From: an uncultured Oscillospiraceae bacterium
Lineage (GTDB): Bacteria > Bacillota > Clostridia > Acetivibrionales > DTU013
NCBI GenBank assembly: GCA_964512095.1
Contig: CAZEIH010000001.1
Coordinates: 126,091 to 190,090, forward strand
DNA length: 64,000 bases
Direction: 5' to 3'
A program made the translations under genes and the position numbers. Below, one piece after another: positions 1-37,899 of the stretch (its first letter is position 1; each line of letters begins with the position of its first letter). A model generated the notes under the pieces. It saw only the letters and a program-made list of their open reading frames with translations. It ran no database searches and had not been told where the DNA came from.

Positions 1-3000
1 GTCAAAGGGATAAACAGGTAGGCTTATTCTTGCATATTTCCGGTTTCCATAAATCCGCTCCCAATCTACAGCTCCACCCTGCACATAAAGACTGCATAAT
101 TCTTTTCCAAGCCTGCTATTTGCACAATTGGAAGCTATAAACCTCTCGGTTATATCTGCAGTCTGTCTATTAATCTCTGCTCTCCTTTCCTCCAGCTCCA
201 TCACTTGTCCAATATCCTGCACCCTGGACTGCATATCTGTTTCGCCAAAGAAAACATCCTCCATATTTACTTTATTGAGATTAGCCATGTTTAAAGCACT
301 TATCTTTTTGCAAATATCCTTATAGCCATCGAATAGAATAGCAAGCCTTTTGACATGATGTCCTCTTCCTGTGTTAGCCGTAAAACAGATATTACCAAGC
401 ATATTACTGTCCATAACCTTACTGTTAAAAAACTCGTCATATTCGGACACCAGCTTTTCTAAGCTCTCAAGTTTTCCAGCTGATAATGTTAATATATAAG
501 GCATATCTGTCTTTATTTCAGAACTGTAGCTGTCGGGTGCATCCTCCAGAACAAAATGACAATTGGTTCCACCAATACCAAAGGAGCTTACTCCACAGCG
601 TATTGGTGTATTGCTTCCCTTTATACATTTTGATTTTGTGTTTACATAAAATGCTGTTTGAGTAAAGTCAATCTTATCATTAGGCTCGTTAAACTCAATA
701 GAAGGCGGAATTTCTTTATTTTTTAGTGATAAGACCGCCTTTATCAGTCCAATCAGACCAGCACTTTCATACAGATGACCAAAATTCGATTTGACAGAAC
801 CTATAGCACAAAACTGTTTTTTTGATGTAAATTTTGACATTGCTTCCTGAAGACCTTCAACCTCAATGACATCGCCGATTTTTGTTCCTGTTCCATGGGC
901 TTCTATCCATGACAGAGTTTCAGGATTAATTCCCGCATTTCTCCATGCCTTCAAAATAACCTCACTCTGATATCTTGCACTGGGTACAGTAATCCCAACT
1001 GATGCACCATCCTGGTTTACAGCGCTACCCTTTATCACTGCATATATATTGTCTCTATCTACCAGAGCCCGGTTCAAGGGCTTTATCATAACAGCTATAA
1101 CGCCCTCTCCAGTACCTGACCCGTCTGCGTATTTGTCAAAAGTTCTGGTCATATTATCCGATGATTCTATACCAATTTTGTAGTAATCTTTATCACAGGG
1201 AATATAATTGATTCTTGAACTACCCACTACAGCAGCATCACAGTCTCCGTTTTTAATTGCCTGGCAGGCCATATGCAAGGCTACAAGAGATGAAGAGCAC
1301 GCCGTATCTATAACCATACTAGGCCCTTTAACATCCAGAGTGTAGGAAACCCTGTTAGGGATAAGTGCAGAAATGTTTCCAATTGCACAAATGGGAAGTG
1401 ATTCCGGATCTGTATCATGAATCATTTCTTTATATTTATAAAATTCAGAATCGCTAATCTGTCCTACAAATACGCCAATATTTTCTCCCTTAAGCTTATC
1501 TCCGCCATATCCAGAGTCCTCTACTGCATGGATTACAGTTTCCAAAAACATTCTCTGGGCAGGATTCATAAGACCTGCTTCCCTGGGTGAAATCCTGAAG
1601 AAGGAGTAATCAAATTCATCAATGTTTTTCAGGTATGCTCCCTCATAAAACTTAAGGTTTGTATTTTTCTCATCTTTGAACTCCAGGTATCGTTCAATAT
1701 CAGCCTTTCTTGACATAGGAAACTCTGTAGCAAAGCAGATACCGTTGCGTATGCCCTCCCAGAATTCATCAAGCTCATCTACGATAGGCAATGCAGCATT
1801 AATACCAATAATTGCAATGTCCTCATGAGATAACTCTGAAGTATAGCCGCAGGCTGCCACTTCTTGAGACACATCAATATTTTCAGTGTTATTGCTTAAT
1901 CCTCTGATATACTCAGCCAATTTTCTGACTGTTGGATATGTAAACAAATCAGATATCTTTATTATTCCCGGGTAAATATCATCAAGCCTTGAGTGAACAT
2001 TGGTCAGTAATATGGAGTTGCCGCCAAACTCAATTAAATTGTCATCTAAGCCAATACTATCAGTTCCAATAACATTTCTGACTATATGTATTAGAGTTTC
2101 TTCAATCCTATCCTTTGGAATATCCTGATGACCAGCTGATTTAGCAATATCCTTTTCCAATACAGCTATATCATTTAGAACCTTTTCAAATTCATTATTC
2201 CCATAATTGTCAGCAAGCTTATATCTTTCTATTTTACCGCTGGTAGTCTTTGGGATCTTTTTCAAAGGAATTATACTGTCTATTTCCAATCCCATAATCA
2301 AACGAATATGTCTTTTTAGTTGTATAGCCAGAGGAACAAATGCATCCAATGACTTTTTAAAATATACAAAAAGAATGACTATATCTCTGGCCTTTTCAGT
2401 GCTATAGCAGCTACATGCAGCAGTTTCTCCAGGCTTGGTGCCCTCTACCGCTTCGGCCACTCTTTCAATATCATGTGCATAGTAATTCTGACCATGTACA
2501 AATATTACATCCTTTGCCCTGCCTGTGATAATTAGCCGTCCATCCCGGACAAATCCAAGATCTCCGGTATTCAACCAGCCCTCTGAAGATATAGTACCAG
2601 CGGTGGTATCAGTGTCATTATAATATCCCTTTGTAACATTAGTACCCTTGATCTGAACATATCCCACCATGTACTCTCCAAGGACATTATTATACTCATC
2701 ACATATCCGAATGTCACAAAAATCTATAGGGAATCCAAGGTCTACAAATGCCACTGATTGGTCATTCTTTGTATCTGAAACCCTTGCCCTGTCACCAACA
2801 CTTAATGATTTTCTGTCAATATTGACACTAACGAACTTCTCGTTAACAGGCGGGAAGGTAACTGCAAGACTGGCTTCGGCCAGTCCGTATACTGGAAATA
2901 TTACATTGCCTCTAAGCCCATACCTATCCATATAATTTAGAAACTTCTCACATACATCAGTCGAAATAGGCTCTGCTCCATTTAGGATTAGTCGAAGATT

Positions 3001-3879
3001 ACTTAAATCCCAGGTGTACTCATCCTTATTTTCTATCATTTTAATAAGGTACTGATATCCAAAATTAGGAGAAACGGTTATTGTTATTTTATGCTCGCTA
3101 GCCTTTTCCATCCATAGCCAAGGACGTCGAACAAACAAGCTTGTAGGCATGATGTAATGATTTATGGCAAATGACAGAGGTACAAGATGACATCCTATTA
3201 AACCCATATCATGAGTTAGAGGCATCCAGCTTAGCGCTACATCCTCATGTTTCAATTCAATGTTTTTCATAATAGAGAATATATTGGTGGTCAAATTGCT
3301 GTGAGTTAAAACCACACCCTTTGGTGAGCCTGTGGAGCCTGAGGAAAATTGAATAAATGCTATATCATCAGTACTGATTTTTGCTATCTGTCCCTTACTC
3401 TCAGAAGCTTCCAGCTCACTCAACATTATCACACCAGCTTTTATCTGTTGAAAACTACAGTTAATGTCGCAAATCACATCAAAGCTCTCAAGTGCATCTA
3501 ATACATCTGGTGTTGTAACCATGTGAGGATTATTCAGCTTATCCCATACCTTGTATAGTTTTAACTTATGTTCATTATTTTTTCCTACTGTAATTGGAAC
3601 AGGTATAATCCCTCCAAGAATACACGCCCAAAATAGAACAACAAAGGATTCTACATGATCAATCTGCAGAATCAATTCATCACCCCTGGCTACTCCTTTT
3701 GCCTGTAGACCATAAAGGACGCGTAATGCTTTTCTATACAAATCTTCATATGAAATAAAGTGCTCCTCATTCTCACCAAAAATAGAGGTTATACCTTTTC
3801 CCGGTACACCTCGAGCACTTTCAAGAGCCTCAATCAGAGTTGAAAATTTAACTATTTCTGATCCCGCCTTTATTAAAAT
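1..3879 (-). CDS. Hybrid polyketide synthase, N-terminal part: fatty-acyl-AMP-ligase-like adenylation domain, carrier protein, ketosynthase, short post-KS linker. The 3' end runs off the left edge of the window.
   Basis: Own translation of the minus strand; absent from the ORF track because there is no stop in the window. Adenylation motifs FIQFSSGSTGSPKGVVLTH, GWLNTGDLGF, IPKTTSGKIERY. Carrier motif LIEFGGNSILL (Ser codon at 2014-2016). KS motifs VIDTACSSSLVALHMA (Cys codon at 1297-1299), EAHGTGTKIGD, KSNFGHL, GGTNCHFVLED. Ends with ISLPVYPFD at the window edge. The start is ambiguous (ATT 3879 or CTG 3837). Confidence 0.85.
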   Translation of the reverse strand, partial: MLIKAGSEIVKFSTLIEALESARGVPGKGITSIFGENEEHFISYEDLYRKALRVLYGLQAKGVARGDELILQIDHVESFVVLFWACILGGIIPVPITVGKNNEHKLKLYKVWDKLNNPHMVTTPDVLDALESFDVICDINCSFQQIKAGVIMLSELEASESKGQIAKISTDDIAFIQFSSGSTGSPKGVVLTHSNLTTNIFSIMKNIELKHEDVALSWMPLTHDMGLIGCHLVPLSFAINHYIMPTSLFVRRPWLWMEKASEHKITITVSPNFGYQYLIKMIENKDEYTWDLSNLRLILNGAEPISTDVCEKFLNYMDRYGLRGNVIFPVYGLAEASLAVTFPPVNEKFVSVNIDRKSLSVGDRARVSDTKNDQSVAFVDLGFPIDFCDIRICDEYNNVLGEYMVGYVQIKGTNVTKGYYNDTDTTAGTISSEGWLNTGDLGFVRDGRLIITGRAKDVIFVHGQNYYAHDIERVAEAVEGTKPGETAACSCYSTEKARDIVILFVYFKKSLDAFVPLAIQLKRHIRLIMGLEIDSIIPLKKIPKTTSGKIERYKLADNYGNNEFEKVLNDIAVLEKDIAKSAGHQDIPKDRIEETLIHIVRNVIGTDSIGLDDNLIEFGGNSILLTNVHSRLDDIYPGIIKISDLFTYPTVRKLAEYIRGLSNNTENIDVSQEVAACGYTSELSHEDIAIIGINAALPIVDELDEFWEGIRNGICFATEFPMSRKADIERYLEFKDEKNTNLKFYEGAYLKNIDEFDYSFFRISPREAGLMNPAQRMFLETVIHAVEDSGYGGDKLKGENIGVFVGQISDSEFYKYKEMIHDTDPESLPICAIGNISALIPNRVSYTLDVKGPSMVIDTACSSSLVALHMACQAIKNGDCDAAVVGSSRINYIPCDKDYYKIGIESSDNMTRTFDKYADGSGTGEGVIAVMIKPLNRALVDRDNIYAVIKGSAVNQDGASVGITVPSARYQSEVILKAWRNAGINPETLSWIEAHGTGTKIGDVIEVEGLQEAMSKFTSKKQFCAIGSVKSNFGHLYESAGLIGLIKAVLSLKNKEIPPSIEFNEPNDKIDFTQTAFYVNTKSKCIKGSNTPIRCGVSSFGIGGTNCHFVLEDAPDSYSSEIKTDMPYILTLSAGKLESLEKLVSEYDEFFNSKVMDSNMLGNICFTANTGRGHHVKRLAILFDGYKDICKKISALNMANLNKVNMEDVFFGETDMQSRVQDIGQVMELEERRAEINRQTADITERFIASNCANSRLGKELCSLYVQGGAVDWERIYGNRKYARISLPVYPFD

Positions 3880-3884
3880 TTTTG

Positions 3885-4772
3885 TTATCCTTTGATACCG
3901 GAAAGCTGAAGTCCTTCCACTAGATAATTTTCACCATATAGAAATATCAAAAGCATTGGTATCATGTAAAGGGCTGAGGATGCAAATGCAATACCCAGCT
4001 CATTCTTATTTATTGAAGAAAGCATTATGGATAATGGATAATCCTTCAATTCCCTGAGAAAAACCAAAGGCTGCTCAACAATATTCCAATTATCAATAAA
4101 CAGCAAGATTACTAATGAAGCAATACCTGTTTTAGTCATAGGGAGAATAATACTGAAAAATATGTTTAAGTGACCTCCCCCATCTACCTTCACTGCTTCC
4201 GAGTACTCATCAGGGATGTACATCATGAACTGCCGCAATAAAAAAACTCCAAAGGTAGAGAAAACACCAGGTAATATTATTGATGATAAACGACCTATTA
4301 ATCCAAGCTTATCCGCTACGATATAGTTAGGCACAAGCGTCACCTGGAAGGGCATCAGCATGGTAACGATATAGATGAAAAACAACTGATCCCTAAATCT
4401 AAACTTGAATTTGGAAAATCCATATGCCGCCATTGATGCAATTAATAGCTGTCCTAAAATTATTGGAACCACTATTTTTACAGAATTCCAAAAATAAAAA
4501 AGATAATTATTGTTTTTTATCATAATGTCATAGTATTGCTCTATAACAACAATTTGAGGTATAAATTTAAATATACTGAAATCATCAGCCTTAATGTCGT
4601 CCCCCCCCATATATACATTGGAATTGACAGCTTTATAGGCATCAAATATCTCATCCTCCGACATAAAGGAATTAGTCATTGTAACTATTATTGGCAATAG
4701 AAAGGCCAGGGCAACGATACCTATAACAAATGTTAATGCTGCTTTTTTAACTTTTCGTTTTGCATTACGCAT
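3885..4772 (-). CDS. Carbohydrate-type ABC transporter permease (MalG-like, CUT1 family)
   Basis: 295-aa ORF with multiple TM segments and an EAA-loop-like motif SEAVKVDGGGHLNIFFSIILPM. Adjacent to a second permease and a binding protein. Confidence 0.8.
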   Translation of the reverse strand: MRNAKRKVKKAALTFVIGIVALAFLLPIIVTMTNSFMSEDEIFDAYKAVNSNVYMGGDDIKADDFSIFKFIPQIVVIEQYYDIMIKNNNYLFYFWNSVKIVVPIILGQLLIASMAAYGFSKFKFRFRDQLFFIYIVTMLMPFQVTLVPNYIVADKLGLIGRLSSIILPGVFSTFGVFLLRQFMMYIPDEYSEAVKVDGGGHLNIFFSIILPMTKTGIASLVILLFIDNWNIVEQPLVFLRELKDYPLSIMLSSINKNELGIAFASSALYMIPMLLIFLYGENYLVEGLQLSGIKG

Positions 4773-4807
4773 TTGTACTCCCCCCCTCTAATCTCAACCT
4801 ACATTTA

Positions 4808-5683
4808 CTATATTATTGCTTTGCTGATTTTTCTCTCAGCCCTAAACAGTACAAATACTAGTATATAAATAACAAATCCCATTACAAACGCCGCCGACGT
4901 CAGCTTTTGATAGTCTAAAGCCGCAAAGGTGTTATTCATATAATGCTGAAGCATATAGATACTATCATGGGGGTAATCCCCTGACGTTAGATATATCTCC
5001 CTGAAAACCTTGAATGAATTAATAATGGACATTATAAAAACAAAAAATGTCGTAGGTGTTAAATATACCAAAGTAATTTTTGTAAACTTTTTAAATGAAC
5101 TGGCACCGTCTATATCCGCGGATTCATAGTACTGCCTGGGGATATTCTGCAATCCGGCAAGAAAAAGGACTAGATTATACCCGATATTTTTCCACAAATA
5201 TATAACCAGAACAACTACAACAGACCATTTGGTATTCATCCAATCAACTGCTTCTACTTCGAAAGCCGATAGTATGCTATTTGCCATTCCCTTCTCATGA
5301 AATAATATCTGCCAAAACATAACGACCGATGCCACCGGAACAACCAATGGCGAAACTAAAACGGTTCTGAGTACATTCCGAAAATGAATATCCTTATTGA
5401 TTAGTAAAGCCAGCATCAGCGATATAAGCATAATAGAAGGTACACAGATGCCAGTGAAAAACAATGTGTTGGATGCCGCCTTTCTAAAGCTTTCGCTTTG
5501 AAACAATTGAATGTAGTTTGCCACGCCAACAAAGTTTCTTGAGAAGGCATTGTCAATAAATGAATAGTATATGCCTAAAATGTACGGGAGCAGATAGAAT
5601 ACTAGAAAACCCGCAACACTGGGACCTATAAATATAGCCAGCCAAATCCTATTCTGCCATTTTGAGCCAATGTTCAAAATCAC
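4808..5683 (-). CDS. Carbohydrate-type ABC transporter permease (MalF-like)
   Basis: 291-aa polytopic ORF. ESADIDGASSFKKFTKITLV is an EAA-like loop. Confidence 0.8.
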   Translation of the reverse strand: MILNIGSKWQNRIWLAIFIGPSVAGFLVFYLLPYILGIYYSFIDNAFSRNFVGVANYIQLFQSESFRKAASNTLFFTGICVPSIMLISLMLALLINKDIHFRNVLRTVLVSPLVVPVASVVMFWQILFHEKGMANSILSAFEVEAVDWMNTKWSVVVVLVIYLWKNIGYNLVLFLAGLQNIPRQYYESADIDGASSFKKFTKITLVYLTPTTFFVFIMSIINSFKVFREIYLTSGDYPHDSIYMLQHYMNNTFAALDYQKLTSAAFVMGFVIYILVFVLFRAERKISKAII

Positions 5684-5703
5684 TCATCCCTTCTGCTTTA
5701 TAC

Positions 5704-7080
5704 TTATTCATCAAGATATAATTGTACCTTCCTTTGAATATTCCTTGCGATATCCTCCGCATCTTTCTCACTAAATAAAAAGCTTTTTGAAAATAAAGGT
5801 CCAATTTCTTTTATAACAATAGACTCTATGCGCATGTCACTGTACTGGTACGTATTTATATTATTAATATAGTTATCAATGAAATTTAGTTCATCCTCTG
5901 TAAACCTGATAGCTATCCAGCCCGCCAACTCATCACGTACTCTCCAGTCAAGATTCAATGTTGACTCTTCCTGTCTCTCCATGGCTTCACGGTGTATTGG
6001 GAACCCGGAAGTACCGGCAAAATTCGCATATTTGAATTGAATATCTCTCGACAACAGAATCTTAACAAAATCCCATGCCAGCTCTTTATTTGGCGATGTG
6101 TTGATAATACCAAGCATCAGGTTTGAATCAAAGGAATACTCATCATTTTCTCCTAAGGCAGGAAGTCTAAAAAACACCCGATCACCGCCGCCCAGTGAAT
6201 ATTTGAAGCCTAGTAAAGCTCTATAGCCTTCAAGGGGTCCTCCACTAAATGCAACCTCCTGTGAGTTCTTGTATGGAATCTCCTGAAATAGCTTAATTTG
6301 CGTATGTGTGAGATTATCATCGGAAATACTTTTTAGTGATCTTAAAAGCTCAATAAATTCTGGAGTGTCAAAATATGCCTTCTTATTTTCATAATCAATA
6401 AAGTTCCCTGTATTTATGAAAAGCTTTGCAACACCATCCATGGGCATTTGGGGAAGAGCATACCTGTCCATTGTTCCATCACCATTCAGGTCTTTAGTTA
6501 CTTGTCTTGAAATATTAATAAAATCAGATGCCTTCCATGTATCATCATCTATTACAATACCCTCATCATCCAGGATTTCCTTGGAACCGATTACACCGGC
6601 TAATGAGAATTTGAAGGGTATTGCATACAAGGTTCCATTATATCTACCGGCTTCCACAACATTTGTAATCAGTGAGTCATAATCGAAGCTTTCATCTGAC
6701 TCTATCATTTCTCCTAAATCAGCAAAGATGCTTTTTCTATAGTATTTCATAGCAGGTAAGTATGTAATGGGGACTATGTCAGGACCCTTCCCTGCCATTA
6801 GCTCAGTGTTTATAACACTTACATATCTCTCGATATCATAACCCATTTTAGACATATCATTTATGTCCACTGTTGCATCAGGATGCATTTTTTCAAATAC
6901 CTTAACAGCATTATTTATTATACCTTCATCTGTTTTTGACAAATAAGCACAGGTGAAGGTAATCACATTTCTTCCTTGTTCGTCTACTCTTCTTGTGTTT
7001 AGTTCCCCCTCACCGCATGAAGTTAGTAATGTTACAAATACAAGTAATACACTAAAAATACACATTTTCTTATAAAGCAT
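5704..7080 (-). CDS. Extracellular solute-binding lipoprotein (family 1-like)
   Basis: 458 aa with a signal peptide and lipobox LLTSC. RBS GGAGGAGGGG upstream. Sits in an SBP-permease-permease arrangement. Confidence 0.75.
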   Translation of the reverse strand: MLYKKMCIFSVLLVFVTLLTSCGEGELNTRRVDEQGRNVITFTCAYLSKTDEGIINNAVKVFEKMHPDATVDINDMSKMGYDIERYVSVINTELMAGKGPDIVPITYLPAMKYYRKSIFADLGEMIESDESFDYDSLITNVVEAGRYNGTLYAIPFKFSLAGVIGSKEILDDEGIVIDDDTWKASDFINISRQVTKDLNGDGTMDRYALPQMPMDGVAKLFINTGNFIDYENKKAYFDTPEFIELLRSLKSISDDNLTHTQIKLFQEIPYKNSQEVAFSGGPLEGYRALLGFKYSLGGGDRVFFRLPALGENDEYSFDSNLMLGIINTSPNKELAWDFVKILLSRDIQFKYANFAGTSGFPIHREAMERQEESTLNLDWRVRDELAGWIAIRFTEDELNFIDNYINNINTYQYSDMRIESIVIKEIGPLFSKSFLFSEKDAEDIARNIQRKVQLYLDE

Positions 7081-8557
7081 GATACCCCTCCTCCACTAAC
7101 GCTGCTTTCTTTATTTGTGTCTTCAGAAGACGCTGACCTCTATAGGTCGGCGATGAATGAAGACGAATATATGTATAAACCACACTGGTAGATATATAGC
7201 CCCATATCACACAAATACTCTTAAGCTTTACTTGATATGGCAGTCCCATCATAGCTGACAAAAGAATTGCTAGAATTATTGATGCAACGAAAAAGCAACT
7301 ACTGAGGACAGCTACCCTGGTAACTTGTGTATTTCCCTGAAAGAATTGATAGATACCTATATGAAACCCAGGGATTCCAATAATGATAGCAAGAAAGAAG
7401 AGTACATTTGTTAGCTTTTCTGATATTTCGTACTCAAGCTGAGTATGACTCTTAAGAACATTCAGCTCCTGATTATACTCATATATTTTGCTATCTATTA
7501 AATCCTCATAATACTTAGTATCAATTAGATCATCATGTAAATACTCCTGTGGTATATACAAATCAAATCTCACAGCAAGAATGACCACCACTACTAGCAA
7601 AAGACCAACTAGAGTTTTTATTAATTGTATAGCCAACAGGCGCTTGTTTCCGGAAATGATATCGGATAAATAATTACTTGCTGTCATTGCTTTAATAGTC
7701 TTAAATGTGTTAACCAATGTTCTTTTTATATATGAAACTATGAGTAATACGGTTATAATCCCTATTATTAACAAAATAATCTCAGGCTTTTGCTTAAGCA
7801 TTGTCATATTCTTATTAAAATCAGATATAACATAATTTGGTGCCCATTTTCCTATTGAATAAAGTGCATCACTAACCATATTTTCATTTTCACCTACTAG
7901 AATTTCTGTATCAGTTTTTATAAAAATAGTATCAATCAGTATGCCTTTATCAATCTCCATTAATGTGTTAGCAGGAATGTATATGCTACTCAAGCCATCA
8001 CTTGAGAGCCTTTCAATGATATTCTCATTGCTTCGGTCATCAAGAATCTTGTACTTTTCATACACGCCTACCACTTCAAAGTCTTTGTCGTAAAGTTTAA
8101 CCTCCTGCCCCACAACGTCAGTGCTGTTAAATATCTCCAATGCCAAATTTGCATCTAAAACTACCACATATTTGAGCTCCTCTCCCTTATAGCTAAAGAG
8201 GCTTCCAGATACCATGTCAATATTAACAAAGTTCTTATAATAAGGATTTACACCATATACCTTTGTGTAATAATTTCGGTTGTCTTTTTCTATAGCTGCA
8301 TTAGTTAATGCATAATACCCGATTTCCTCTGTCTCAAGCTCTTCCTCAAGATTTTCTATGTCCCGGGACGAAAAGAGAAGGGCAGGCGTTTTATTTTTAG
8401 CTGTAACACTAGCTTTGCTCATCCCATTGAACCCATTCATATTTAGAATCGCATTGCTTATATTGATATTGATTAATATCGCAGCTACAAGGACGGCTAT
8501 CCCCAGGAATATGAGCAGTATCGGTAACTTTTTCATTCCAGGATTCCTCTCATTCAT
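7070..8557 (-). CDS. Membrane permease, MacB/FtsX-like (tentative)
   Basis: 495 aa: N-terminal TM, a large extracytoplasmic domain, then C-terminal TM bundles. Its start overlaps the HlyD-like gene by 4 nt. The last ~30 codons run through a 46-bp palindromic repeat. Confidence 0.5.
   Translation of the reverse strand: MNERNPGMKKLPILLIFLGIAVLVAAILININISNAILNMNGFNGMSKASVTAKNKTPALLFSSRDIENLEEELETEEIGYYALTNAAIEKDNRNYYTKVYGVNPYYKNFVNIDMVSGSLFSYKGEELKYVVVLDANLALEIFNSTDVVGQEVKLYDKDFEVVGVYEKYKILDDRSNENIIERLSSDGLSSIYIPANTLMEIDKGILIDTIFIKTDTEILVGENENMVSDALYSIGKWAPNYVISDFNKNMTMLKQKPEIILLIIGIITVLLIVSYIKRTLVNTFKTIKAMTASNYLSDIISGNKRLLAIQLIKTLVGLLLVVVVILAVRFDLYIPQEYLHDDLIDTKYYEDLIDSKIYEYNQELNVLKSHTQLEYEISEKLTNVLFFLAIIIGIPGFHIGIYQFFQGNTQVTRVAVLSSCFFVASIILAILLSAMMGLPYQVKLKSICVIWGYISTSVVYTYIRLHSSPTYRGQRLLKTQIKKAALVEEGYHAL
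7119..7164. repeat. 46-bp palindromic element, copy A (GTCTTCA...TGAAGAC outer stem, inner stem CGCTGACC/GGTCGGCG)
   Basis: 41 of 46 positions identical to 9942-9987 by manual alignment. Internal dyad symmetry. Confidence 0.7.
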
Positions 8558-9891
8558 TCTTCCATTTGATATTCTAATAATATACGTCCTTTATCTTTCA
8601 AGGGCTTATCCGTTTTTACTACTATCCGATCATCGGGAGTAATTCCTCCTTCAATGGCTGTTTGATTGTTGTCGGAATCCAGTATATTTACATCTAGAAT
8701 TTCTATATAATTTTCTTTTCCAAGGAATCCATTTCTCTCCATAACCACCCATACATAACCTTGCTCTTCATCAATACCAGGTATTACAGCTGAATTAGGT
8801 ACAAGATAGGTGTAATTCAATGTATCCCTTTCAATGTATATCTGACCCTTTTCCCCGCCACTGATTCTGTCTATCAGCATTTTCACATCTTCAGTATTAG
8901 CTTCAGCATTTTCATCAGTAATCTCTGCGACAATTTCCTTTTTGACACCTTTGAAATTTTTACTCTCTCCAACCCGAACGACCGTCCCAGTCAGTAGATC
9001 CGATCCAAGCGCAATAACCTTAACTGACACCTTATCATCGACTTGAACAAGATCTGCACTATCGATGTCAATGTCTGTAACGAATCTGAAAGAACTATCC
9101 TTGTGTGTAATCGTTAATAGCTTCGTTGTCTTACTGACCCAGTTACCATTGGAGGCATGTATATCCTTTACTACACCATCCACTGGTGAATATATCATGT
9201 AGGAATCATCATCTCCCATTTTCTCCTTATGTATTTTCATGTCCAGCTCAAACCTCTTAATGCTGGACAACTCTTTATTTCTTGATATCTCATACCCCTT
9301 ACTTTTAGTATCATATTCCTTTTTAGCAATCTCATAGCTCAATTCAACATTCTTGTAATTTTCCTGTGATTCTGCGCCAATCTCAAAGAGCTCCTTAACA
9401 GAATTCATTCTTCTTTCTGCCTGCTCATAATTTTTCAATGCAATATCTATCTCAGCCTGAAGACTTAATTGATTTACACCTGCATTATAATCATCCAACA
9501 TTTCCTTATATGCAAGCTCCATTTTCTCATATGTTAGCTCGTCAATTTTTTTCTGTCTTGTCGCCGTATCTCCGTCCACAGGTTCCACTATTGCCAGAAG
9601 ATCACCCTTTGAAACCATATCGCCATATTCTACTTTAATTTCTTTAACCTTGCAGCTTACATCAGAGTCCATATAAATATCAGTAAAGCTTACTGCCTCA
9701 ATATATCCGTCTCCAGTAATCTTTTTCATCAGAGATCCTTCTATCGGATTTTCAGCAGTGACTTTTGGCAACAGAAAGTTATTAATAGTATTAGAAAAAA
9801 ATGTAAGCAAAAAAATCGTTCCAAAAAAAATCAGTATTAGCCTACTAATGGTCTTTTTTTTCATATTATTCGCAACATCAACGTTTGCCAT
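8554..9891 (-). CDS. HlyD-family / efflux adaptor (membrane fusion) protein
   Basis: 445 aa: N-terminal TM, a lipoyl-like segment (VKEIKVEYGDMVSKGDLLAIVEP), a long coiled-coil-like region, and a C-terminal beta-rich domain. Confidence 0.7.
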   Translation of the reverse strand: MANVDVANNMKKKTISRLILIFFGTIFLLTFFSNTINNFLLPKVTAENPIEGSLMKKITGDGYIEAVSFTDIYMDSDVSCKVKEIKVEYGDMVSKGDLLAIVEPVDGDTATRQKKIDELTYEKMELAYKEMLDDYNAGVNQLSLQAEIDIALKNYEQAERRMNSVKELFEIGAESQENYKNVELSYEIAKKEYDTKSKGYEISRNKELSSIKRFELDMKIHKEKMGDDDSYMIYSPVDGVVKDIHASNGNWVSKTTKLLTITHKDSSFRFVTDIDIDSADLVQVDDKVSVKVIALGSDLLTGTVVRVGESKNFKGVKKEIVAEITDENAEANTEDVKMLIDRISGGEKGQIYIERDTLNYTYLVPNSAVIPGIDEEQGYVWVVMERNGFLGKENYIEILDVNILDSDNNQTAIEGGITPDDRIVVKTDKPLKDKGRILLEYQMEE

Positions 9892-9990: not shown

Positions 9991-10779
9991 TTAATTAACT
10001 TCCTCCTCCTGACTCCCTGAGCGAAGCGAATTGACTTTAGAATAATATACTGCATTAAAAATCGCCGGCACAATAAAGGTCAGTAAAGATGACAATATAT
10101 ACGGTACATAATTCCGAATTCGAAAAAGCACAAATCTTGGATCCAAATCCAACTGCATCGACTGTATGATGTAGTATGGCACATTCCACGGTAGTATCCT
10201 CAAATAATCAGCCCCTGTAAGCTGGGGATTCATTATGTAAATCAGGACTGACAATGCAACAGGTAGCACATAGGTTCTACTGACAATACACACCATAACG
10301 CAGATTGGTACCACTGAAAAAAACAGTAGAATAACTGCTAAACAAACTTTAAAGTGATAATATATTAATTGCCAGTTCATCTTCCCCCCAATGACCAATA
10401 TGCCGAACAAAATAGTTAGAAAAAATACGGCAAGTACCATAATAGAAGTAATAATAAGAATCACAACATGCTTTGAAATCATGAACATTGGCCTTGCATA
10501 TGGATACATAAACTGATTCACGATTTCACTATTCTTATACTCCGTTACAAAAATCCAAATTGCTATGAAAATAATTGACATCATCAATATTCCATTTGAC
10601 ATTTCTAACTCAACAAAAGGAAGTAGATAATTCATATCAATTACATTACCGTAACTATTCCGAACACGAATCCAGTTTATAATGCCCAGCGTAACAGGAA
10701 CAACAATACCGACAGGGATCAGCAATAATATTTTTGTCCTCTTCAATTTCATGAATTCAGTAAAAATCAAGTTGTGCAA
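9991..10779 (-). CDS. ABC-2 type permease (lantibiotic-immunity-like)
   Basis: 262 aa with about 6 TM segments, directly downstream of the ABC NBD gene (2-nt gap). TTG start. Confidence 0.65.
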   Translation of the reverse strand: MHNLIFTEFMKLKRTKILLLIPVGIVVPVTLGIINWIRVRNSYGNVIDMNYLLPFVELEMSNGILMMSIIFIAIWIFVTEYKNSEIVNQFMYPYARPMFMISKHVVILIITSIMVLAVFFLTILFGILVIGGKMNWQLIYYHFKVCLAVILLFFSVVPICVMVCIVSRTYVLPVALSVLIYIMNPQLTGADYLRILPWNVPYYIIQSMQLDLDPRFVLFRIRNYVPYILSSLLTFIVPAIFNAVYYSKVNSLRSGSQEEEVN

Positions 10780-10781
10780 GA

Positions 10782-11705
10782 TTACCCTCCGGTCAAACTC
10801 AAAAAATGATCCTCCAGCGTATTTGTTTCAATCCTAATCTCTATTACACTAATACCCTCCTGCATAAGCGTACGGTTGATGTCAGCTGTGTTTTCATTGC
10901 TGTTATATATTTGGAATAGATTGTCTTGAACAATCCTGTAATCACGGATTCCCATTTTCTCTTCAAAAACAAGCGATGCCTTTCTGCTATCATTTACTCT
11001 AAGCTCAATATAATTTCTGTTTGCTTTACAAAAATCTAATGGATCAATTTCATCCACAAGACTCCCCTTATGTACTATCCCAATCCTGCTGGCAATTTGA
11101 TCTGCCTCGCTCAATATGTTTGTAGATAAAATCACTGTAACACGCTGATATAACGAGAGATCCAGTAATAACTTCCTAATATCACGAATCCCCGCCGGAT
11201 CCAGCCCACTTAAGGGATCCTCTAGAATCAGTAAATCCGGATTGTGTACCAAAGCTCTAGCCAAGGATATCTTTTGTTTAGTCGCAAACGATAGATTCTT
11301 AACAAGGTGGTGCTTGTATTCATATAAACCTAGACGTTTTAATGCCTGCTCCACATATGAGGAATCAGGAATACTCATCAATCGCCTATGGAGCTCCATA
11401 TTCTCAAAAACTGTCAGGTTGGGATATAAGCCGGGTTCTGTCAAGGTTGAGCCGACTCGCCGCAGATACCTGTATTCTGAGGTGTTCACCTCTCTTCCAA
11501 ACAATTCGATTGAGCCTGATGTAGGCCTTACTAGTCCGGTAAACATTCTAATAATTGTATTAACACCTGAATCGCTACGTCCCAGTAAAGTATATATCTC
11601 TCCTCTTTTAACGCTAATATTAATTTTATTAATACTATGGCAGTTCTTAAAATCCTTTGACAGATTGTATGCTTTTAGTACTTCCGAAATCATACCCTCC
11701 TTCAC
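10782..11705 (-). CDS. ABC transporter nucleotide-binding-domain protein with degenerate catalytic motifs
   Basis: 307 aa with overall NBD layout. Walker A is GRSDSGVNT (Lys absent), the signature is LSFAT, Walker B is LLILEDP, and the switch region is STN instead of SSH. Confidence 0.8.
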   Translation of the reverse strand: MKEGMISEVLKAYNLSKDFKNCHSINKINISVKRGEIYTLLGRSDSGVNTIIRMFTGLVRPTSGSIELFGREVNTSEYRYLRRVGSTLTEPGLYPNLTVFENMELHRRLMSIPDSSYVEQALKRLGLYEYKHHLVKNLSFATKQKISLARALVHNPDLLILEDPLSGLDPAGIRDIRKLLLDLSLYQRVTVILSTNILSEADQIASRIGIVHKGSLVDEIDPLDFCKANRNYIELRVNDSRKASLVFEEKMGIRDYRIVQDNLFQIYNSNENTADINRTLMQEGISVIEIRIETNTLEDHFLSLTGG

Positions 11706-11767
11706 ACTGCTATTCTATTATATAATGTCTTATCTTAAATAATCATGACTTAATTATTACAAAAGTC

Positions 11768-12682
11768 TTAAATTGATTTTTTTAGAAAGAAGCTAAGTGT
11801 TGTCTTTTCATTCGGTACAATACTAACACCGATTTCACCATTCATATTCTGCACTAACCTTTTTGCTATAGGCAGGCCAAGTCCGCTGCTTCCCTCACAA
11901 TGGTTTCGTGCAATATACAGTCTGGAAAATACGTCCTTTATTTCATCCTGACTGATTCCCTCTCCCTGATTCCATACATCTACCCACACCCTTTCTGGCT
12001 CCTCTCTCAAAGTGATGCCAAAGTAGCTCCCTGGTTTTCCATACCGCAATACATTAGATAGAAGGTTTTGAAGAATCCTATTGATACTGGTTTCATCTCC
12101 CCATACATACAAATCCTTTTCAGGAATATCGATTACAGCAGAAAGCTCTACTTTTATCAGATCCTGATACATAAAGCAGAGCATTTTTTTAACTAGTTCT
12201 GATAGATTCTGTTTTGTTAGTCTTACGTCAGTGTTGTCCGCTTCAAGCTTAGCGTACTCAAACATATCGTCTATGAATTTGTGTAGCCTTTCTCCCTTAC
12301 ACGCAACAATTTCTATATATCGATTTCTATCCCTCTCCACTAATGATGGCTTACTACTCAACTCATCAATATAGCCTAAAATAGATGTTAAAGGTGTTCT
12401 TATGTCATGGGACAAGTCTGAAATGAATTGTTTTGTCATAATTTCATTTCTTTTGATTTTCTCAACTATACCCTGATATTCTTGAATCAATGAGTTTATA
12501 CGTTGAGCTAGGGCACATATGGATTTTGAGTTATTGGAAACGTAGCATATTCTGCTTTTGTTTTCCAAAAGAATATCATCCAGAGTAACGGTGACCTCTC
12601 GCAGGCCTTTTATCAGTAGGTTAAGCTTTATGGACAATAACAAAACTGTAGTGCACAATAGCACAATAACAACATAAATCAT
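11768..12682 (-). CDS. Sensor histidine kinase (single N-terminal TM, HisKA + HATPase_c)
   Basis: H-box FISDLSHDIRTPLTSILGY. C-terminal ATPase motifs (NLLSNVLRYG, GSSGLGLPIAKRLV). Confidence 0.85.
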   Translation of the reverse strand: MIYVVIVLLCTTVLLLSIKLNLLIKGLREVTVTLDDILLENKSRICYVSNNSKSICALAQRINSLIQEYQGIVEKIKRNEIMTKQFISDLSHDIRTPLTSILGYIDELSSKPSLVERDRNRYIEIVACKGERLHKFIDDMFEYAKLEADNTDVRLTKQNLSELVKKMLCFMYQDLIKVELSAVIDIPEKDLYVWGDETSINRILQNLLSNVLRYGKPGSYFGITLREEPERVWVDVWNQGEGISQDEIKDVFSRLYIARNHCEGSSGLGLPIAKRLVQNMNGEIGVSIVPNEKTTLSFFLKKSI

Positions 12683-12745
12683 TGTTGGACCCTCACGAAG
12701 CTGATATTTGGTATCTTAAAAAGCATTTTCCTTCTGATGTCACAA

Positions 12746-13465
12746 TTAGGACCACAAAACAATTTCATCACAAAGCTCGTCCATGTCAATAATTTGAACA
12801 TCTTTACAAAACTCGCCACTTAATGAGCATGCTGCCACTTTATATTCCGAATCAATATGATACTGCCTAAAATAATAATGGCGTAGCAAATCCTCTGTAG
12901 CTAGACTAATAACCTGACTAGTATTATCTATAGAGATTGTAAAGGAATCCAACGGGATGGATAGCCCTCTGCCCACAGCTTTAACATAGCTCTCCTTCAA
13001 CGTCCACAAATCGTAGAAAAAAGCTTCTCTTTCATGTGTATCCTTTTGCATTATTGCCTCAGCCTCACGCTCTGAGAAAAAGCGATCTACTATACTGATA
13101 TCAATAGGCTTTATTTGTTCCACATCAATTCCCACCGGCAAATAGTCAATACCGCAGATCACCCATTTACCGGCATGCGAGATATTGTACTCAATTCCAT
13201 GATTACCTGTAAGAAATGGTTTGCCATATTCATTTTCACGAAACACCAGCTCCTGATTTTTGATTCTTAGCTTACTGCAAATCAAATATCTAGTTAGCAC
13301 ATCACCCATTAGGGTTCTTTGTGCATCCTCGTACTTGTAGAACCTTTGCACTCTCTGTCGTTTTTCCTCTGAAACGACTGATAGGAGCCGGATAAATATA
13401 TCATTTTCAAGTAAATGGTCCAAATTAATCCCATAAATTCTCAAACCCATATTTACTTCTTTCAT
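12746..13465 (-). CDS. Sfp-type 4'-phosphopantetheinyl transferase
   Basis: Motifs GKPFL, YNISHAGKWV, VGIDVEQI, WTLKESYVKAVG. The true start may be the internal MGLRIYG (13450). Confidence 0.85.
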   Translation of the reverse strand: MKEVNMGLRIYGINLDHLLENDIFIRLLSVVSEEKRQRVQRFYKYEDAQRTLMGDVLTRYLICSKLRIKNQELVFRENEYGKPFLTGNHGIEYNISHAGKWVICGIDYLPVGIDVEQIKPIDISIVDRFFSEREAEAIMQKDTHEREAFFYDLWTLKESYVKAVGRGLSIPLDSFTISIDNTSQVISLATEDLLRHYYFRQYHIDSEYKVAACSLSGEFCKDVQIIDMDELCDEIVLWS

Positions 13466-13859: not shown

Positions 13860-15263
13860 CTATTGATTCTTTATAGATTTAATGACGCTATCTATGTCTC
13901 CATTACTATCCGATTTGCTAATTTCATGATCCAACTTACTATCATTTATAAATCTACCATCATCATTCTGGAGGTAAACCATTACAAACTTCAAAATGTC
14001 ACCTTTATAATCCTCAACCTCATAAATTATTATAACATCCTTCAACTTATCACTATTTACGTCCTCACATGCAATATCTGATAAATCAACACCGATAGGC
14101 ATATCCGGCAGAAATCTGTAAATTATGTCATCAGTATTGTCAGCCAGATATAATGCAATAAGCGGCTCACGAGAGCCACCAGATAACTTCAAAGGTATAA
14201 GTCTGATGTCTTCACGGGAACCCAGCTCTATACTAACAATATGTTGGTCGATAATAGTATTGTCTTGGCTATCCATATCCTCCAAATTAAATGGTCTGAA
14301 TAGATATATTCCTTCCTGCGGTTCAATATATTTCGATGTCTTTGTAAAATCGATATCTGCTTCGATCTCACCGTTTTCCATAAATATTAGTTTTATTGTC
14401 CCTTCATTACCAGTGCTGTCACTAAATTGACATTCAGCTATATTACCATTAACTTCTCCAGTTAGGTTTCTTATATCATAGCAGGAAGGTATAGCCAAAA
14501 CATTGGTACTTAACTGCCCGAACAATTCTGTACCTATAACCTTATTGATAGAGAAGGATACGATATTGTCATTGCTTTTTCCAATCCACGTTTTTCCAGT
14601 ATATCGTTCATAGTTAAAAACACTTTCTTGCACCGTGTCTTTGTTTTCAAGCACTTTCTCAAAATCCTTGATTAGCATTTTGTACTCAGCTCCATCTGTA
14701 TCGCTGAGTGTCTCTAAAACATTACTATATTTGCAAACTTTGCCGTCAATGACTATGTATTCTTCCTTGGTTTCCTTAATTATGTTATAGCCATCCTCAT
14801 AATATATCGGGTTGTCATATTGGATAACTGTTTCAATAAAGTATGTCATGAGTTCATCAATGTAGTAAATATTGTAACATTTTCTTCCCATTTCCCCATA
14901 AATATTCACTTCAATATACTTCAAACTGCCATTATCATAATAGCCCTCTATCGTCCCACCTTCAGCTGAAACAAAATAATCCCCTTGCTTTACAACATAA
15001 TTTCCTCTGTACTCATTAAAATCATGCATATAAGTTTGAATATCATGCTCAATGCTGTTAAAATCAGGCAACTCCGTATTCTCTTTATTGGGATATGGAT
15101 CTGAGTCATTATTGCTGACTGTGTTATCAATGTCTGCATTTTTATTTGCATTGTTGGCTGTGGTACCATCTGTGTCCACAATAAAATCAGGTCTAATGAT
15201 CCCGTAGGATGCAATAATTACAGAAAACACTAAAATTGATATAAATATAACGATTTTCTTCAT
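13860..15263 (-). CDS. Hypothetical membrane-anchored / secreted protein
   Basis: 467-aa ORF with an N-terminal hydrophobic anchor (IVIFISILVFSVIIASYGI). No recognisable domain. Confidence 0.55.
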   Translation of the reverse strand: MKKIVIFISILVFSVIIASYGIIRPDFIVDTDGTTANNANKNADIDNTVSNNDSDPYPNKENTELPDFNSIEHDIQTYMHDFNEYRGNYVVKQGDYFVSAEGGTIEGYYDNGSLKYIEVNIYGEMGRKCYNIYYIDELMTYFIETVIQYDNPIYYEDGYNIIKETKEEYIVIDGKVCKYSNVLETLSDTDGAEYKMLIKDFEKVLENKDTVQESVFNYERYTGKTWIGKSNDNIVSFSINKVIGTELFGQLSTNVLAIPSCYDIRNLTGEVNGNIAECQFSDSTGNEGTIKLIFMENGEIEADIDFTKTSKYIEPQEGIYLFRPFNLEDMDSQDNTIIDQHIVSIELGSREDIRLIPLKLSGGSREPLIALYLADNTDDIIYRFLPDMPIGVDLSDIACEDVNSDKLKDVIIIYEVEDYKGDILKFVMVYLQNDDGRFINDSKLDHEISKSDSNGDIDSVIKSIKNQ

Positions 15264-15730: not shown

Positions 15731-15886
15731 TTATACCGCTTTTGAGTTGCTCCCCTGATATTTTGCTTTTGTTGCTTCCCCTCCCCTGATATGCCTTTCT
15801 GCTTTGTTTTCCTCCAGAATGACCCTCACGTCTTCAGCAAGCTCAGGGCTCACCCTTAGCAATCGTTCCGTTACATCCTTGTGCAC
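15731..15886 (-). CDS. spoIIID: spoIIID 3' segment (C-terminal 49 codons plus stop) of a split gene
   Basis: Encodes VHKDVTERLLRVSPELAEDVRVILEENKAERHIRGGEATKAKYQGSNSKAV*, colinear with the C-terminal half of SpoIIID (KSTVHKD...RGG.GGE motif region). The upstream part of the 95-aa track ORF is element DNA. Confidence 0.85.
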   Translation of the reverse strand: MHKDVTERLLRVSPELAEDVRVILEENKAERHIRGGEATKAKYQGSNSKAV

Positions 15887-37690: not shown

Positions 37691-37899
37691 ACTACCACCA
37701 CCAAAATAACACATTATTATACAAGTTTTGCGTATGATAATCACACTATATTGATATAGCATAGTCCAATTTCCAATATAAGTCAAGTCTAATCACGTTA
37801 TTATAAATAAATTGCTGCAAAAAATCACATTCTTATGTACTTCCTTGTCGATAGCCTACTCTGCATTATCGTATTTTAATCTACATCCTGCTGCAAAAC

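What the first reader, a model, noticed from the sequence alone, without database searches (positions are those of the whole stretch)
1..3879. FAAL-ACP-KS loading module without an integrated acyltransferase and without a canonical start codon
Seen in the sequence. The long minus-strand ORF, missed by the track, begins with a fatty-acyl-AMP-ligase-type adenylation domain. A carrier domain (GGNS) follows, then a complete KS (Cys-His-His residues present). Only about 190 residues separate the KS end (GGTNCHFVLED) from an LPxYPF-type motif (ISLPVYPFD). That is too short for a cis-AT domain. Between the upstream in-frame stop (TGA at 3933-3931) and the conserved N-terminus (KFSTLIEAL…) there is no ATG, GTG or TTG. 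The candidates are ATT at 3879, 8 nt after AAAGGA and 5 nt after the stop of the preceding permease gene, or CTG at 3837. Established knowledge: FAAL-ACP-KS starts are typical of lipopeptide/lipopolyketide pathways, and KS followed by a short linker without an AT is typical of trans-AT systems. Inference: this is the start of a lipidated polyketide or hybrid assembly line. Initiation may depend on translational coupling to the transporter gene.
Basis: partly seen in the sequence, partly recalled or inferred. Interest (0 to 1): 0.55.

Follow-up and report, generated by a model that had tools for sequence, protein, structure and literature searches.

The report
AT-less lipid-primed PKS gene, ATA start
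This is the first 3.9 kb of the first gene of an uncharacterised trans-AT polyketide assembly line from an uncultured biogas-reactor Clostridia-type bacterium, ordinary in design except that its start codon has mutated from ATG to the weak codon ATA in every strain sampled.

Summary
The minus-strand frame 3933→1 encodes a fatty-acyl-AMP-ligase-type domain, a carrier domain, a Cys-His-His ketosynthase and a 186-residue linker ending in LPVYPF. It has no acyltransferase and runs off the window.

Conspecific contigs (99.7-100% identical) complete the picture:
- Gene 1 is FAAL-ACP-KS-KR-ACP.
- Gene 2 is KS-KR-ACP-KS-KR-ACP.
- Gene 3 is KS-KR-ACP-C.
- Four small tailoring genes follow, then a free-standing FabD-like acyltransferase 4.2 kb after the last PKS gene.

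The trans-AT reading is therefore supported.

No ATG, GTG or TTG lies between the upstream stop and the conserved N-terminus.
- It aligns without gaps to the ATG of the four nearest relatives.
- It lies 3 codons before the conserved Phe, the commonest position among 58 homologues, all of which have a canonical start.
- It has the best Shine-Dalgarno match (AAAGGCGGGA, -8.0 kcal/mol).

ATA is present in four further assemblies, three of them from strains distinct from the window's. This lineage also lost the roughly 140-180 nt spacer after the transporter gene. Translational coupling is plausible but untested.

Verdict: a new member of a known kind with a rare start codon. Interest is moderate to low.

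The parts
1..3855 (-). 5' part (1285 codons) of PKS gene 1. The full gene in conspecific contigs is FAAL-ACP-KS-KR-ACP, about 1924 codons counted from ATA.
   Evidence: P0001/P0124 are 100% identical over the shared part. L088 is identical to the window over 7.1 kb.
3853..3855 (-). Proposed start codon ATA (near-cognate).
   Evidence: It aligns without gaps with the ATG of L002, L004, L005 and L006. It lies 3 codons before the conserved Phe, the commonest position among 58 homologues. It is conserved in L001, L088, L089/L091 and L090.
3862..3871 (-). Shine-Dalgarno-like AAAGGCGGGA. The GGCGG core at 3868-3864 lies 8 nt before ATA.
   Evidence: Duplex with the anti-SD is -8.0 kcal/mol with a 7-nt spacer, the best of all candidate starts. 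It is homologous to AAAGGGGAGA in L004.
3877..3879 (-). In frame, 5 nt after the permease stop, and a possible minor start.
   Evidence: Its SD (AAAGGA) gives -5.9 kcal/mol. It would add 8 residues that no homologue has.
3739..3741 (-). First canonical in-frame codon (TTG). Public gene callers use it as the start. It is probably not the real start.
   Evidence: It lies 38 codons after ATA and has no SD (-1.7 kcal/mol). Starting here would remove the invariant N-terminal positions L8, G22, I26, E32 and Y37. P0001 and P0122-P0125 all begin here.
2188..3852 (-). FAAL-type adenylation domain. It includes SSGSTG (3345-3328), WMPLTHDMG (3228-3202) and the FAAL-specific insertion (about 2847-2734).
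1906..2097 (-). Carrier (ACP) domain. The GGNS motif with its Ser is at 2025-2014.
691..1824 (-). Condensing ketosynthase. The Cys motif is at 1308-1288, HGTGT at 897-883 and NFGH at 786-775.
4..684 (-). Post-KS linker (flanking subdomain) ending in LPVYPF (21-4). It contains no AT.
3885..9891 (-). Co-directional upstream genes kept in the same order in relatives: HlyD-like (8554-9891), MacB-like (7070-8557), solute-binding protein (5704-7080) and two permeases (4808-5683, 3885-4772). The last stop, TAA 3887-3885, is 29 nt before ATA.
   Evidence: The same order occurs in L002, L005 and L006.
9991..13465 (-). Probable cluster accessory genes: ABC-2 permease, ABC ATPase, orphan histidine kinase and Sfp-type phosphopantetheinyl transferase (12746-13465).
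   Evidence: The same genes occur in L089.

Best explanation
**What it is.** Window 1-3855 (minus strand) is the 5' two-thirds of the first gene of a trans-AT PKS/NRPS hybrid cluster. The organism is an uncultured spore-forming, S-layer-bearing Bacillota bacterium of anaerobic digesters.

**How the module works.**
- The FAAL-type domain adenylates a fatty or other lipophilic carboxylic acid and loads it on the adjacent ACP.
- The Cys-His-His KS takes it over and condenses it with a malonyl unit. That unit is placed on the module's second ACP by a free-standing acyltransferase, because the KS is followed only by a 186-residue linker.
- The KR, which lies off the window, gives a 3-hydroxyacyl chain.
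- Three further AT-less KS-KR-ACP modules and a terminal condensation domain, also off the window, would give a polyhydroxy-acyl chain released onto an amine or alcohol.

**Translation.** It most likely starts at ATA 3855, a G-to-A change of the ancestral ATG that kept its Shine-Dalgarno site. This implies percent-level initiation. Ribosomes finishing the permease gene 29 nt upstream may add to it. In-frame ATT 3879 and ATA 3873 may be minor starts.

**Shown.** The domain order, the absence of an AT, the discrete AT in the conspecific cluster, the homology of ATA to ATG, and its fixation in the sampled strains.

**Inferred.** The substrate, the product, actual use of ATA, coupling, and the expression level.
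For: **Domains**
- Domain calls. The full-length 100%-identical protein P0001 is FAAL-ACP-KS-KR-ACP.
- FAAL-like structures top the PDB list and no amino-acid A domain appears.
- The FAAL-specific insertion aligns without gaps to FadD32. McyG has a 21-residue gap there, and non-FAAL ligases align only after it.

**No integrated AT**
- KS to LPxYPF is 186 aa, against 442-453 in AT-containing homologues.
- Solved trans-AT KS structures align over the whole 609 aa.

**The rest of the cluster, from conspecific contigs at 99.7-99.9% identity**
- AT-less gene 2 and gene 3, with a terminal C domain.
- A downstream FabD-like AT with FPGQGSQ and GHSLG motifs.

**Start codon**
- No canonical codon from 3933 to 3741.
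- ATA aligns with the ATG in a gap-free alignment with the four nearest relatives.
- 58 of 58 GTDB homologues have ATG, GTG or TTG, most often 3 codons before the conserved Phe.
- ATA 3855 has the best SD.
- ATA occurs in four further assemblies.
- The N-terminal 38 residues are 53% identical to P0002, against 62% overall.

**Literature**
- AUA initiates at 1-2% of AUG in E. coli (bioRxiv 10.1101/063800).
- In Listeria, also a Bacillota, ATG>ATA>ATT and ATA still gives protein (PMC13068326).
Against: - There is no protein-level or ribosome-profiling evidence for any start.
- The sampled strains differ by only 0.1-0.3%. Fixation of ATA could therefore be recent and neutral or mildly deleterious rather than selected.
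- In the window part of the gene, one strain pair shows 3 non-synonymous against 1 synonymous change. That is too few to show purifying selection.
- No curated NCBIfam FAAL model reaches its cut-off (best 373.8 bits against 600).
- The top structural match, McyG, loads phenylpropanoids (own knowledge), so the substrate need not be a fatty acid.
- The discrete AT sits next to a 3-hydroxyacyl-CoA dehydrogenase/ACP/acyl-CoA dehydrogenase cassette. It might serve an unusual extender unit rather than malonyl-CoA. Only its first 179 residues were seen.
Confidence: 0.72

Rival explanations
1. Same gene and pathway, but translation starts at ATT 3879. Ribosomes that terminate at the permease stop 5 nt upstream would re-initiate there. 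The protein would carry 8 extra N-terminal residues.
For: - ATT is in frame, with AAAGGA placed 7-8 nt upstream (-5.9 kcal/mol).
- It is the near-cognate codon closest to the stop.
- The spacer found in relatives has been deleted, which brings the two genes together.
Against: - No homologue has this extension.
- Its SD is weaker than that of ATA 3855.
- ATT was weaker than ATA in the Listeria reporter (PMC13068326).
- ATA, not ATT, is the codon homologous to the ancestral ATG.
Confidence: 0.15
2. The ATG-to-ATA change is a start-loss mutation. Gene 1, and with it the assembly line, is effectively untranslated: a recently silenced cluster that has not yet accumulated further damage.
For: - The window species is the only one of more than 60 homologues without a canonical start.
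- Near-cognate codons give only about 1-2% initiation (10.1101/063800).
- The few strain differences in gene 1 are mostly non-synonymous (3 to 1), whereas the permease shows 0 to 7.
Against: - About 5.7 kb of gene 1 and the 7.6 kb and 5.2 kb genes that follow are intact in the distinct strains sampled (L001 covers only part of gene 2), and this is an AT-rich genome.
- The SD is retained.
- The three non-synonymous changes cluster in the variable ACP-KS linker.
- ATA still supports translation in a Bacillota species.
Confidence: 0.1
3. The gene starts at the internal TTG 3741, as every public gene call has it (1886 aa). The upstream 38 conserved codons would then be untranslated.
For: It is the first canonical start codon in frame. 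Gene callers in NCBI, ENA, JGI and Logan records all chose it.
Against: - It has no SD (-1.7 kcal/mol).
- It would delete N-terminal residues that are invariant in ten relatives and are part of the AMP-binding fold.
- The 38 upstream codons remain open and 53% identical to P0002.
Confidence: 0.03

Closest known systems
Iturin-family synthetase subunit A (MycA/ItuA/BmyA) of Bacillus, which works with the free-standing malonyl transacylase FenF/ItuD
   Same: - It has the same N-terminal FAAL-ACP-KS tridomain without an integrated AT, served by a discrete acyltransferase.
- It is about 41-43% identical over the 1286 aa. Examples are P0016, which its source names 'iturin A synthetase A'; P0010; and loci L023 (B. 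siamensis) and L016.
- The linker after the KS is short (162 aa in P0010).
   Different: - In iturin-type proteins the KS is followed by an aminotransferase (PF00202) and NRPS modules, which give a beta-amino fatty acid.
- Here the KS is followed by KR-ACP and three more AT-less KS-KR-ACP modules.
- Iturin-type genes start with ATG.
Trans-AT PKS modules of Bacillota with solved KS-linker structures (Brevibacillus bimodule 7ZMA/7ZMC, bacillaene PksJ 4NA1, PksL 5ERF, 5ERB)
   Same: KS plus flanking subdomain aligns over all 609 residues, ending at the same LPxYPF motif. The KS-KR-ACP module design and the discrete FabD-like AT are shared.
   Different: - Priming is by an integrated FAAL-ACP, not by the loading modules of those systems.
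- The product is unknown.
- No DH, MT or beta-branching domains were seen in the three PKS genes.
FAAL-primed cis-AT PKSs (cyanobacterial olefin synthase; mycobacterial FadD32/Pks13; review PMC11837247)
   Same: A FAAL with the FAAL-specific insertion hands a fatty acyl chain to an adjacent ACP and KS.
   Different: Those modules contain their own AT. Here the AT is absent from the module.
Genes with near-cognate start codons (infC and pcnB AUU in E. coli; rsbW ATA variants in Listeria)
   Same: A near-cognate codon with a retained SD lowers translation initiation (10.1101/063800; PMC13068326).
   Different: No autoregulatory or adaptive role is shown here. The gene is a biosynthetic megasynthase, not a regulator or translation factor.

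Membership tests
trans-AT polyketide synthase | KS-containing modules lack an integrated acyltransferase domain | tested here: met
   - No PF00698 hit in the window protein, in full-length P0001, or in genes 2 and 3.
- No GHSxG motif, and KS to LPxYPF is 186 aa against 442-453 in AT-containing homologues.
trans-AT polyketide synthase | Free-standing acyltransferase encoded with the cluster | tested here: met
   - It is outside the window, in conspecific contigs L090 and L091 (99.8-99.9% identical to the window).
- An ORF called at 419 aa begins 4.2 kb after gene 3.
- It matches PF00698 at 2.8e-22 and NCBIfam fabD at 1e-49, and carries FPGQGSQ and GHSLG.
- Only its first 179 aa were seen, so its substrate specificity is unknown.
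trans-AT polyketide synthase | KS followed by the AT-less flanking (linker) subdomain, as in solved trans-AT KS structures | tested here: met
   The sequence aligns over query residues 4-609, through LPxYPF, to 7ZMA, 7ZMC, 5ERB, 4NA1 and 5ERF. Alignments to cis-AT KS-AT structures stop at residues 430-510.
trans-AT polyketide synthase | The discrete AT acylates the module ACPs in trans | not testable with these tools
   This needs a biochemical assay.
Fatty acyl-AMP ligase (FAAL) | Adenylate-forming fold closest to known FAALs, not to amino-acid A domains | tested here: met
   - PDB matches: McyG 1e-94, LpFAAL 3KXW 7e-71, EcFAAL 3PBK 3e-62, plus FadD32, FadD23 and FadD28. No NRPS amino-acid A domain among the matches listed at E<=1e-20.
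- The best NCBIfam hits for this domain are FAAL models.
Fatty acyl-AMP ligase (FAAL) | FAAL-specific insertion in the N-terminal domain (review PMC11837247) | tested here: met
   The insertion lies within residues 337-374 (counted from ATA). That stretch aligns without gaps to FadD32. McyG has a 21-residue gap there. 4CL and luciferases align only after it.
Fatty acyl-AMP ligase (FAAL) | Score above the curated family threshold | tested here: not met
   The best model, NF006624 'fatty acyl-AMP ligase', scores 373.8 bits against a cut-off of 600. No FAAL model reaches its cut-off. The domain is therefore filed as FAAL-type, not as a member of a named FAAL equivalog.
Fatty acyl-AMP ligase (FAAL) | Loads a fatty acid on holo-ACP and rejects CoA | not testable with these tools
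   An ACP with GGNS follows directly. The substrate and CoA rejection need assays.
Condensing (elongating) ketosynthase | Cys-His-His catalytic triad | tested here: met
   DTACSSS, HGTGT and NFGH are all present and lie in invariant columns of alignment A2.
Iturin-type subunit A (MycA/ItuA) | Aminotransferase domain after the KS, followed by NRPS modules | tested here: not met
   P0001 has KR-ACP after the KS and no PF00202 hit. It resembles the iturin loading module but is not a member of that family.
Gene with a near-cognate (non-ATG/GTG/TTG) start codon | No canonical codon between the upstream in-frame stop and the conserved N-terminus, and a near-cognate codon with an SD at the homologous position | tested here: met
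Gene with a near-cognate (non-ATG/GTG/TTG) start codon | Protein N-terminus or initiating ribosomes mapped to that codon | not testable with these tools
   No proteomic or ribosome-profiling data are available for this organism.

The most novel reading that the evidence does not exclude
The ATG-to-ATA change and the loss of the roughly 140-180 nt spacer after the transporter genes together form a selected arrangement. Under it, the first megasynthase is made only at a low level, and mainly by ribosomes arriving from the upstream transporter gene. Output of the whole assembly line would then be tied to translation of its own transport system. This would be a translational throttle on a biosynthetic gene cluster, and a concrete reason why such a cluster looks 'silent'.
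Probability: 0.12. Interest if true: 0.55.

Novelty: new member of a known kind. Interest (0 to 1): 0.35.

Why it matters
- **Annotation.** Every public gene call for this protein (NCBI, ENA, JGI, Logan) starts at an internal TTG. That removes 38 conserved residues of the adenylation domain, so domain and substrate predictors see a truncated enzyme.
- **The cluster.** This is an uncharacterised FAAL-primed, all-KR trans-AT line from anaerobic-digester Bacillota. No relative above 47% identity was found among the species-representative genomes. The predicted product is a polyhydroxylated lipid.
- **Expression.** A near-cognate start on the first gene would limit expression. Anyone trying heterologous production should restore ATG.

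Beyond that, the design is conventional.

Tried and rejected
**Searches that led nowhere**
- A search for the species in 185,579 representative genomes with the protein's own peptide words found nothing. With an alignment, the best hits were 45-50% identical, so the organism could not be named.
- The JGI metagenome scan gave one irrelevant hit.
- I tried to walk down the cluster with a 770-aa fragment of gene 3. The exact protein was not returned.
- P0122 was not on record.
- Rfam found only one tRNA in the window and no leader or riboswitch near the gene.

**Ideas considered and rejected**
- Assembly or sequencing error at the start. Four other assemblies carry the identical sequence.
- A split or pseudogenised gene 1 in the JGI contig. 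The split is a 100-N scaffold gap.
- A permease-PKS fusion by frameshift. The 16-codon frame overlap is short, and no relative shows such a fusion.
- RNA structure masking the start. The z-score is 0.6.
- A conserved terminator in the relatives' spacer. Only L004 has one.
- An AT or further PKS genes elsewhere in the window. None was found.


Full report
**1. The observation**

The minus-strand frame that opens after TGA 3933-3931 stays open to base 1 and runs off the window.

Pfam finds the following domains, with residues counted from ATT 3879:
- AMP-binding, 34-420
- PP-binding, 595-658
- Both halves of a ketosynthase, 686-1063
- The KS C-terminal extension and CurL-like linker, 1066-1195
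- No acyltransferase

The distance from GGTNCH to LPVYPF is 186 residues. AT-less orthologues P0002-P0008 show 184-186. Homologues that do contain an AT (P0053, P0058) show 442-453.

The in-frame codons from 3933 to 3741 contain no ATG, GTG or TTG.

**2. The whole gene and its cluster**

A protein search returned P0001, which is 100% identical and 1886 aa as called. With Pfam it reads FAAL-ACP-KS-linker-KR-ACP.

Contigs from other samples are 99.7-100% identical to the window:
- L088/L092 (SRR8925752), identical over 7.1 kb
- L001 (SRR29487303), 12 differences in 6,056 nt
- L089/L091 (ENA ERZ2847836)
- L090 (JGI 3300038805)

A further copy, P0122, comes from a biogas-reactor metagenome, LSQX01 (PMC5985405).

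The cluster in these contigs reads as follows:
- Gene 2 is KS-KR-ACP-KS-KR-ACP.
- Gene 3 is KS-KR-ACP followed by a condensation domain.
- Then come a B12-binding radical SAM enzyme, a 3-hydroxyacyl-CoA dehydrogenase, a small ACP and an acyl-CoA dehydrogenase.
- 4.2 kb after gene 3 is a free-standing FabD-like acyltransferase (FPGQGSQ, GHSLG; NCBIfam fabD 1e-49).

Upstream, inside the window and on the same strand, lie these genes:
- Two ABC permeases and a solute-binding protein
- MacB-like and HlyD-like proteins
- An ABC-2 exporter pair
- An orphan histidine kinase
- An Sfp-type phosphopantetheinyl transferase

The HlyD-MacB-SBP-permease-permease-PKS order is kept in relatives at 55-62% identity: L002, L005 and L006. 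L004 preserves the permease-to-PKS junction.

No AT or other PKS gene lies elsewhere in the window. The rest of the window encodes recombinases, S-layer proteins and SpoIID, as expected of a spore-forming Bacillota.

**3. Domain identity**

*The adenylation domain.*
- Its best solved relatives are McyG, 6ULW/6ULX, Legionella and E. coli FAALs, and FadD32, FadD23 and FadD28.
- No amino-acid-activating A domain appears among the matches listed at E<=1e-20.
- The region around residues 337-374 (counted from ATA) aligns without gaps to FadD32.
- McyG has a 21-residue gap there. Coumarate ligases and luciferases align only after it.
- This is the FAAL-specific insertion that separates FAALs from acyl-CoA ligases (review PMC11837247).
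- No NCBIfam FAAL model reaches its curated cut-off. I therefore call the domain FAAL-type and leave the substrate open.

*The KS and its linker.*
- They align over all 609 residues, ending at LPxYPF, with solved trans-AT KS structures: 7ZMA/7ZMC, 5ERB, PksJ and PksL.
- Alignments to cis-AT KS-AT structures stop earlier.

**4. The start codon**

*Where relatives start.* The closest relatives begin M-x-x-F-(S/R)-T-L, one to three residues before KFSTL.

*Homology of ATA to ATG.* A gap-free DNA alignment of the start region puts the window's ATA 3855-3853 exactly under the ATG of L002, L004, L005 and L006. The purine-rich Shine-Dalgarno stretch is retained upstream.

*Comparison with other homologues.*
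- Among 58 homologues from representative genomes whose N-terminus was matched, all have a canonical start: 48 ATG, 7 GTG and 3 TTG.
- The commonest position is 3 codons before the conserved Phe, which is where ATA 3855 lies.

*Pairing with the anti-Shine-Dalgarno sequence.*

| Candidate | Energy (kcal/mol) | Spacer |
|---|---|---|
| ATA 3855 | -8.0 | 7 nt |
| ATT 3879 | -5.9 | 7 nt |
| CTG 3837 | -2.0 | 16 nt |
| TTG 3741 | -1.7 | 1 nt |

*Why TTG 3741 is unlikely.*
- All public gene callers use it.
- It would remove residues invariant in ten relatives.
- The 38 codons it would skip are 53% identical to P0002, against 62% for the whole protein.

*Conservation.* The ATA and its flanks are identical in L001, L088, L089/L091 and L090. 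It is therefore real and fixed in the sampled population.

*The spacer.* Relatives with the permease-PKS junction have 149-181 nt between the permease stop and the PKS start. The window has 29 nt. No stable RNA structure covers the site (z 0.6).

*What the literature says about such codons.*
- In E. coli, AUA, AUC, AUU and CUG initiate at 1-2% of AUG (bioRxiv 10.1101/063800).
- In Listeria, a member of the same phylum, spontaneous ATG-to-ATA changes in rsbW lowered but did not abolish translation. The order was ATG>ATA>ATT (PMC13068326).

**5. Mechanism proposed**

*Shown:*
- A FAAL-ACP-KS-KR-ACP first module without an AT
- Three more AT-less KS-KR-ACP modules and a terminal C domain
- A discrete FabD-like AT
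- A start codon mutated to ATA with its SD intact

*Inferred:*
- A lipophilic acid is loaded. It is extended four times with ketoreduction each time, giving a 3,5,7,9-tetrahydroxyacyl chain. The C domain releases it onto a nucleophile.
- Gene 1 is translated weakly from ATA. Initiation at the in-frame ATT 3879 and ATA 3873, and ribosomes terminating 29 nt upstream, may contribute.

*Rivals:*
- ATT 3879 as the main start
- A recently silenced gene
- The annotated TTG

The strains are too similar (0.1-0.3% divergence) to measure selection. The window part of the PKS shows 3 non-synonymous and 1 synonymous differences, all three in the variable ACP-KS linker. The last permease shows 0 and 7.

**6. 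Comparison with known systems**

- The nearest characterised relatives are the FAAL-ACP-KS heads of iturin-family synthetases, at about 41-43% identity. P0016 is named 'iturin A synthetase A' by its source, and L023 is from Bacillus siamensis. They also lack an AT and, from my own knowledge, rely on a discrete malonyl transacylase.
- This protein fails the iturin membership test because a KR-ACP, not an aminotransferase, follows the KS.
- It meets the tested criteria of a trans-AT PKS and of a FAAL-type loader.
- The closest orthologous clusters (55-62% identity) come only from metagenomes. The best match in species-representative genomes over the full-length query is 47%.

**7. Verdict**

This is a new member of a known kind: a FAAL-primed trans-AT PKS/NRPS hybrid. 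The one unusual point is a near-cognate ATA start fixed in the species, which has misled all public gene calls. Its functional meaning is untested. Interest is 0.35.

Noticed in passing
window 3885-9891 (-); also L002 3800-9829, L005 1377-7427, L006 1723-7747: An importer-type ABC set (SBP_bac_1 plus two BPD_transp_1 permeases, with no ATPase gene) and a MacB/HlyD pair sit directly upstream of this PKS family. The order is kept in relatives at only 55-62% identity. A solute-binding-protein system conserved with a PKS cluster is unexpected, and its role is unknown.
   Followed up: partly
L091 22917-27647 (conspecific contig, off the window): After gene 3 come a B12-binding radical SAM enzyme, then 3-hydroxyacyl-CoA dehydrogenase, ACP, acyl-CoA dehydrogenase and the AT. 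From my own knowledge, that four-gene set resembles the hydroxymalonyl- or methoxymalonyl-ACP extender-unit cassettes (zwittermicin zmaD-G, FkbI-K). The discrete AT may therefore not be a plain malonyl-CoA transacylase. No FkbH-like gene was seen in the stretch available.
   Followed up: partly
L091 17676-22883 (gene 3): The last PKS protein ends in a condensation domain (Pfam 1.6e-111) rather than a thioesterase. This suggests release by amide or ester formation, or hand-over to an NRPS encoded further on.
   Followed up: no
L005 432-956 and 7544-8272: The 55%-identity relative has a NusG paralogue at the head of the operon. This recalls LoaP-type antiterminators of Bacillus trans-AT clusters (own knowledge). 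It also has a type II thioesterase gene between the permease and the PKS. No ORF scanned in the window matched either family.
   Followed up: no
L004 1157-1185: A terminator-like hairpin with a T-tract lies in the 149-nt spacer between the permease and the PKS of one relative. L002 and L006 have none by the same scan. The window lineage has lost the spacer altogether.
   Followed up: partly
P0028 (residues about 590-900): A homologue carries a FabD-like AT domain (FPGQGSQ, GHSLG) fused between the FAAL and the KS, not in the usual position after the KS. This looks like a trans-AT captured into the loading protein.
   Followed up: no
L090 6774-6873: A 100-N scaffold gap, replacing 521 nt, splits gene 1 in the JGI record into a 717-aa product and a 1023-aa product (P0121). 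This is an annotation artefact, not a disrupted gene.
   Followed up: yes
window 13860-37786: The flank beyond the phosphopantetheinyl transferase is rich in mobile-element genes. It holds two large serine recombinases (15843-17489, 23864-25585), two AAA_14/DUF4143 ATPases (22283-23686, 36344-37786) and a DUF3846 gene. It also holds a 467-aa ORF with no Pfam match (13860-15263).
   Followed up: no
window 11768-12682 (-): A histidine kinase lies inside the cluster with no response regulator next to it. An AraC-type response regulator lies far away at 57569-58711.
   Followed up: no
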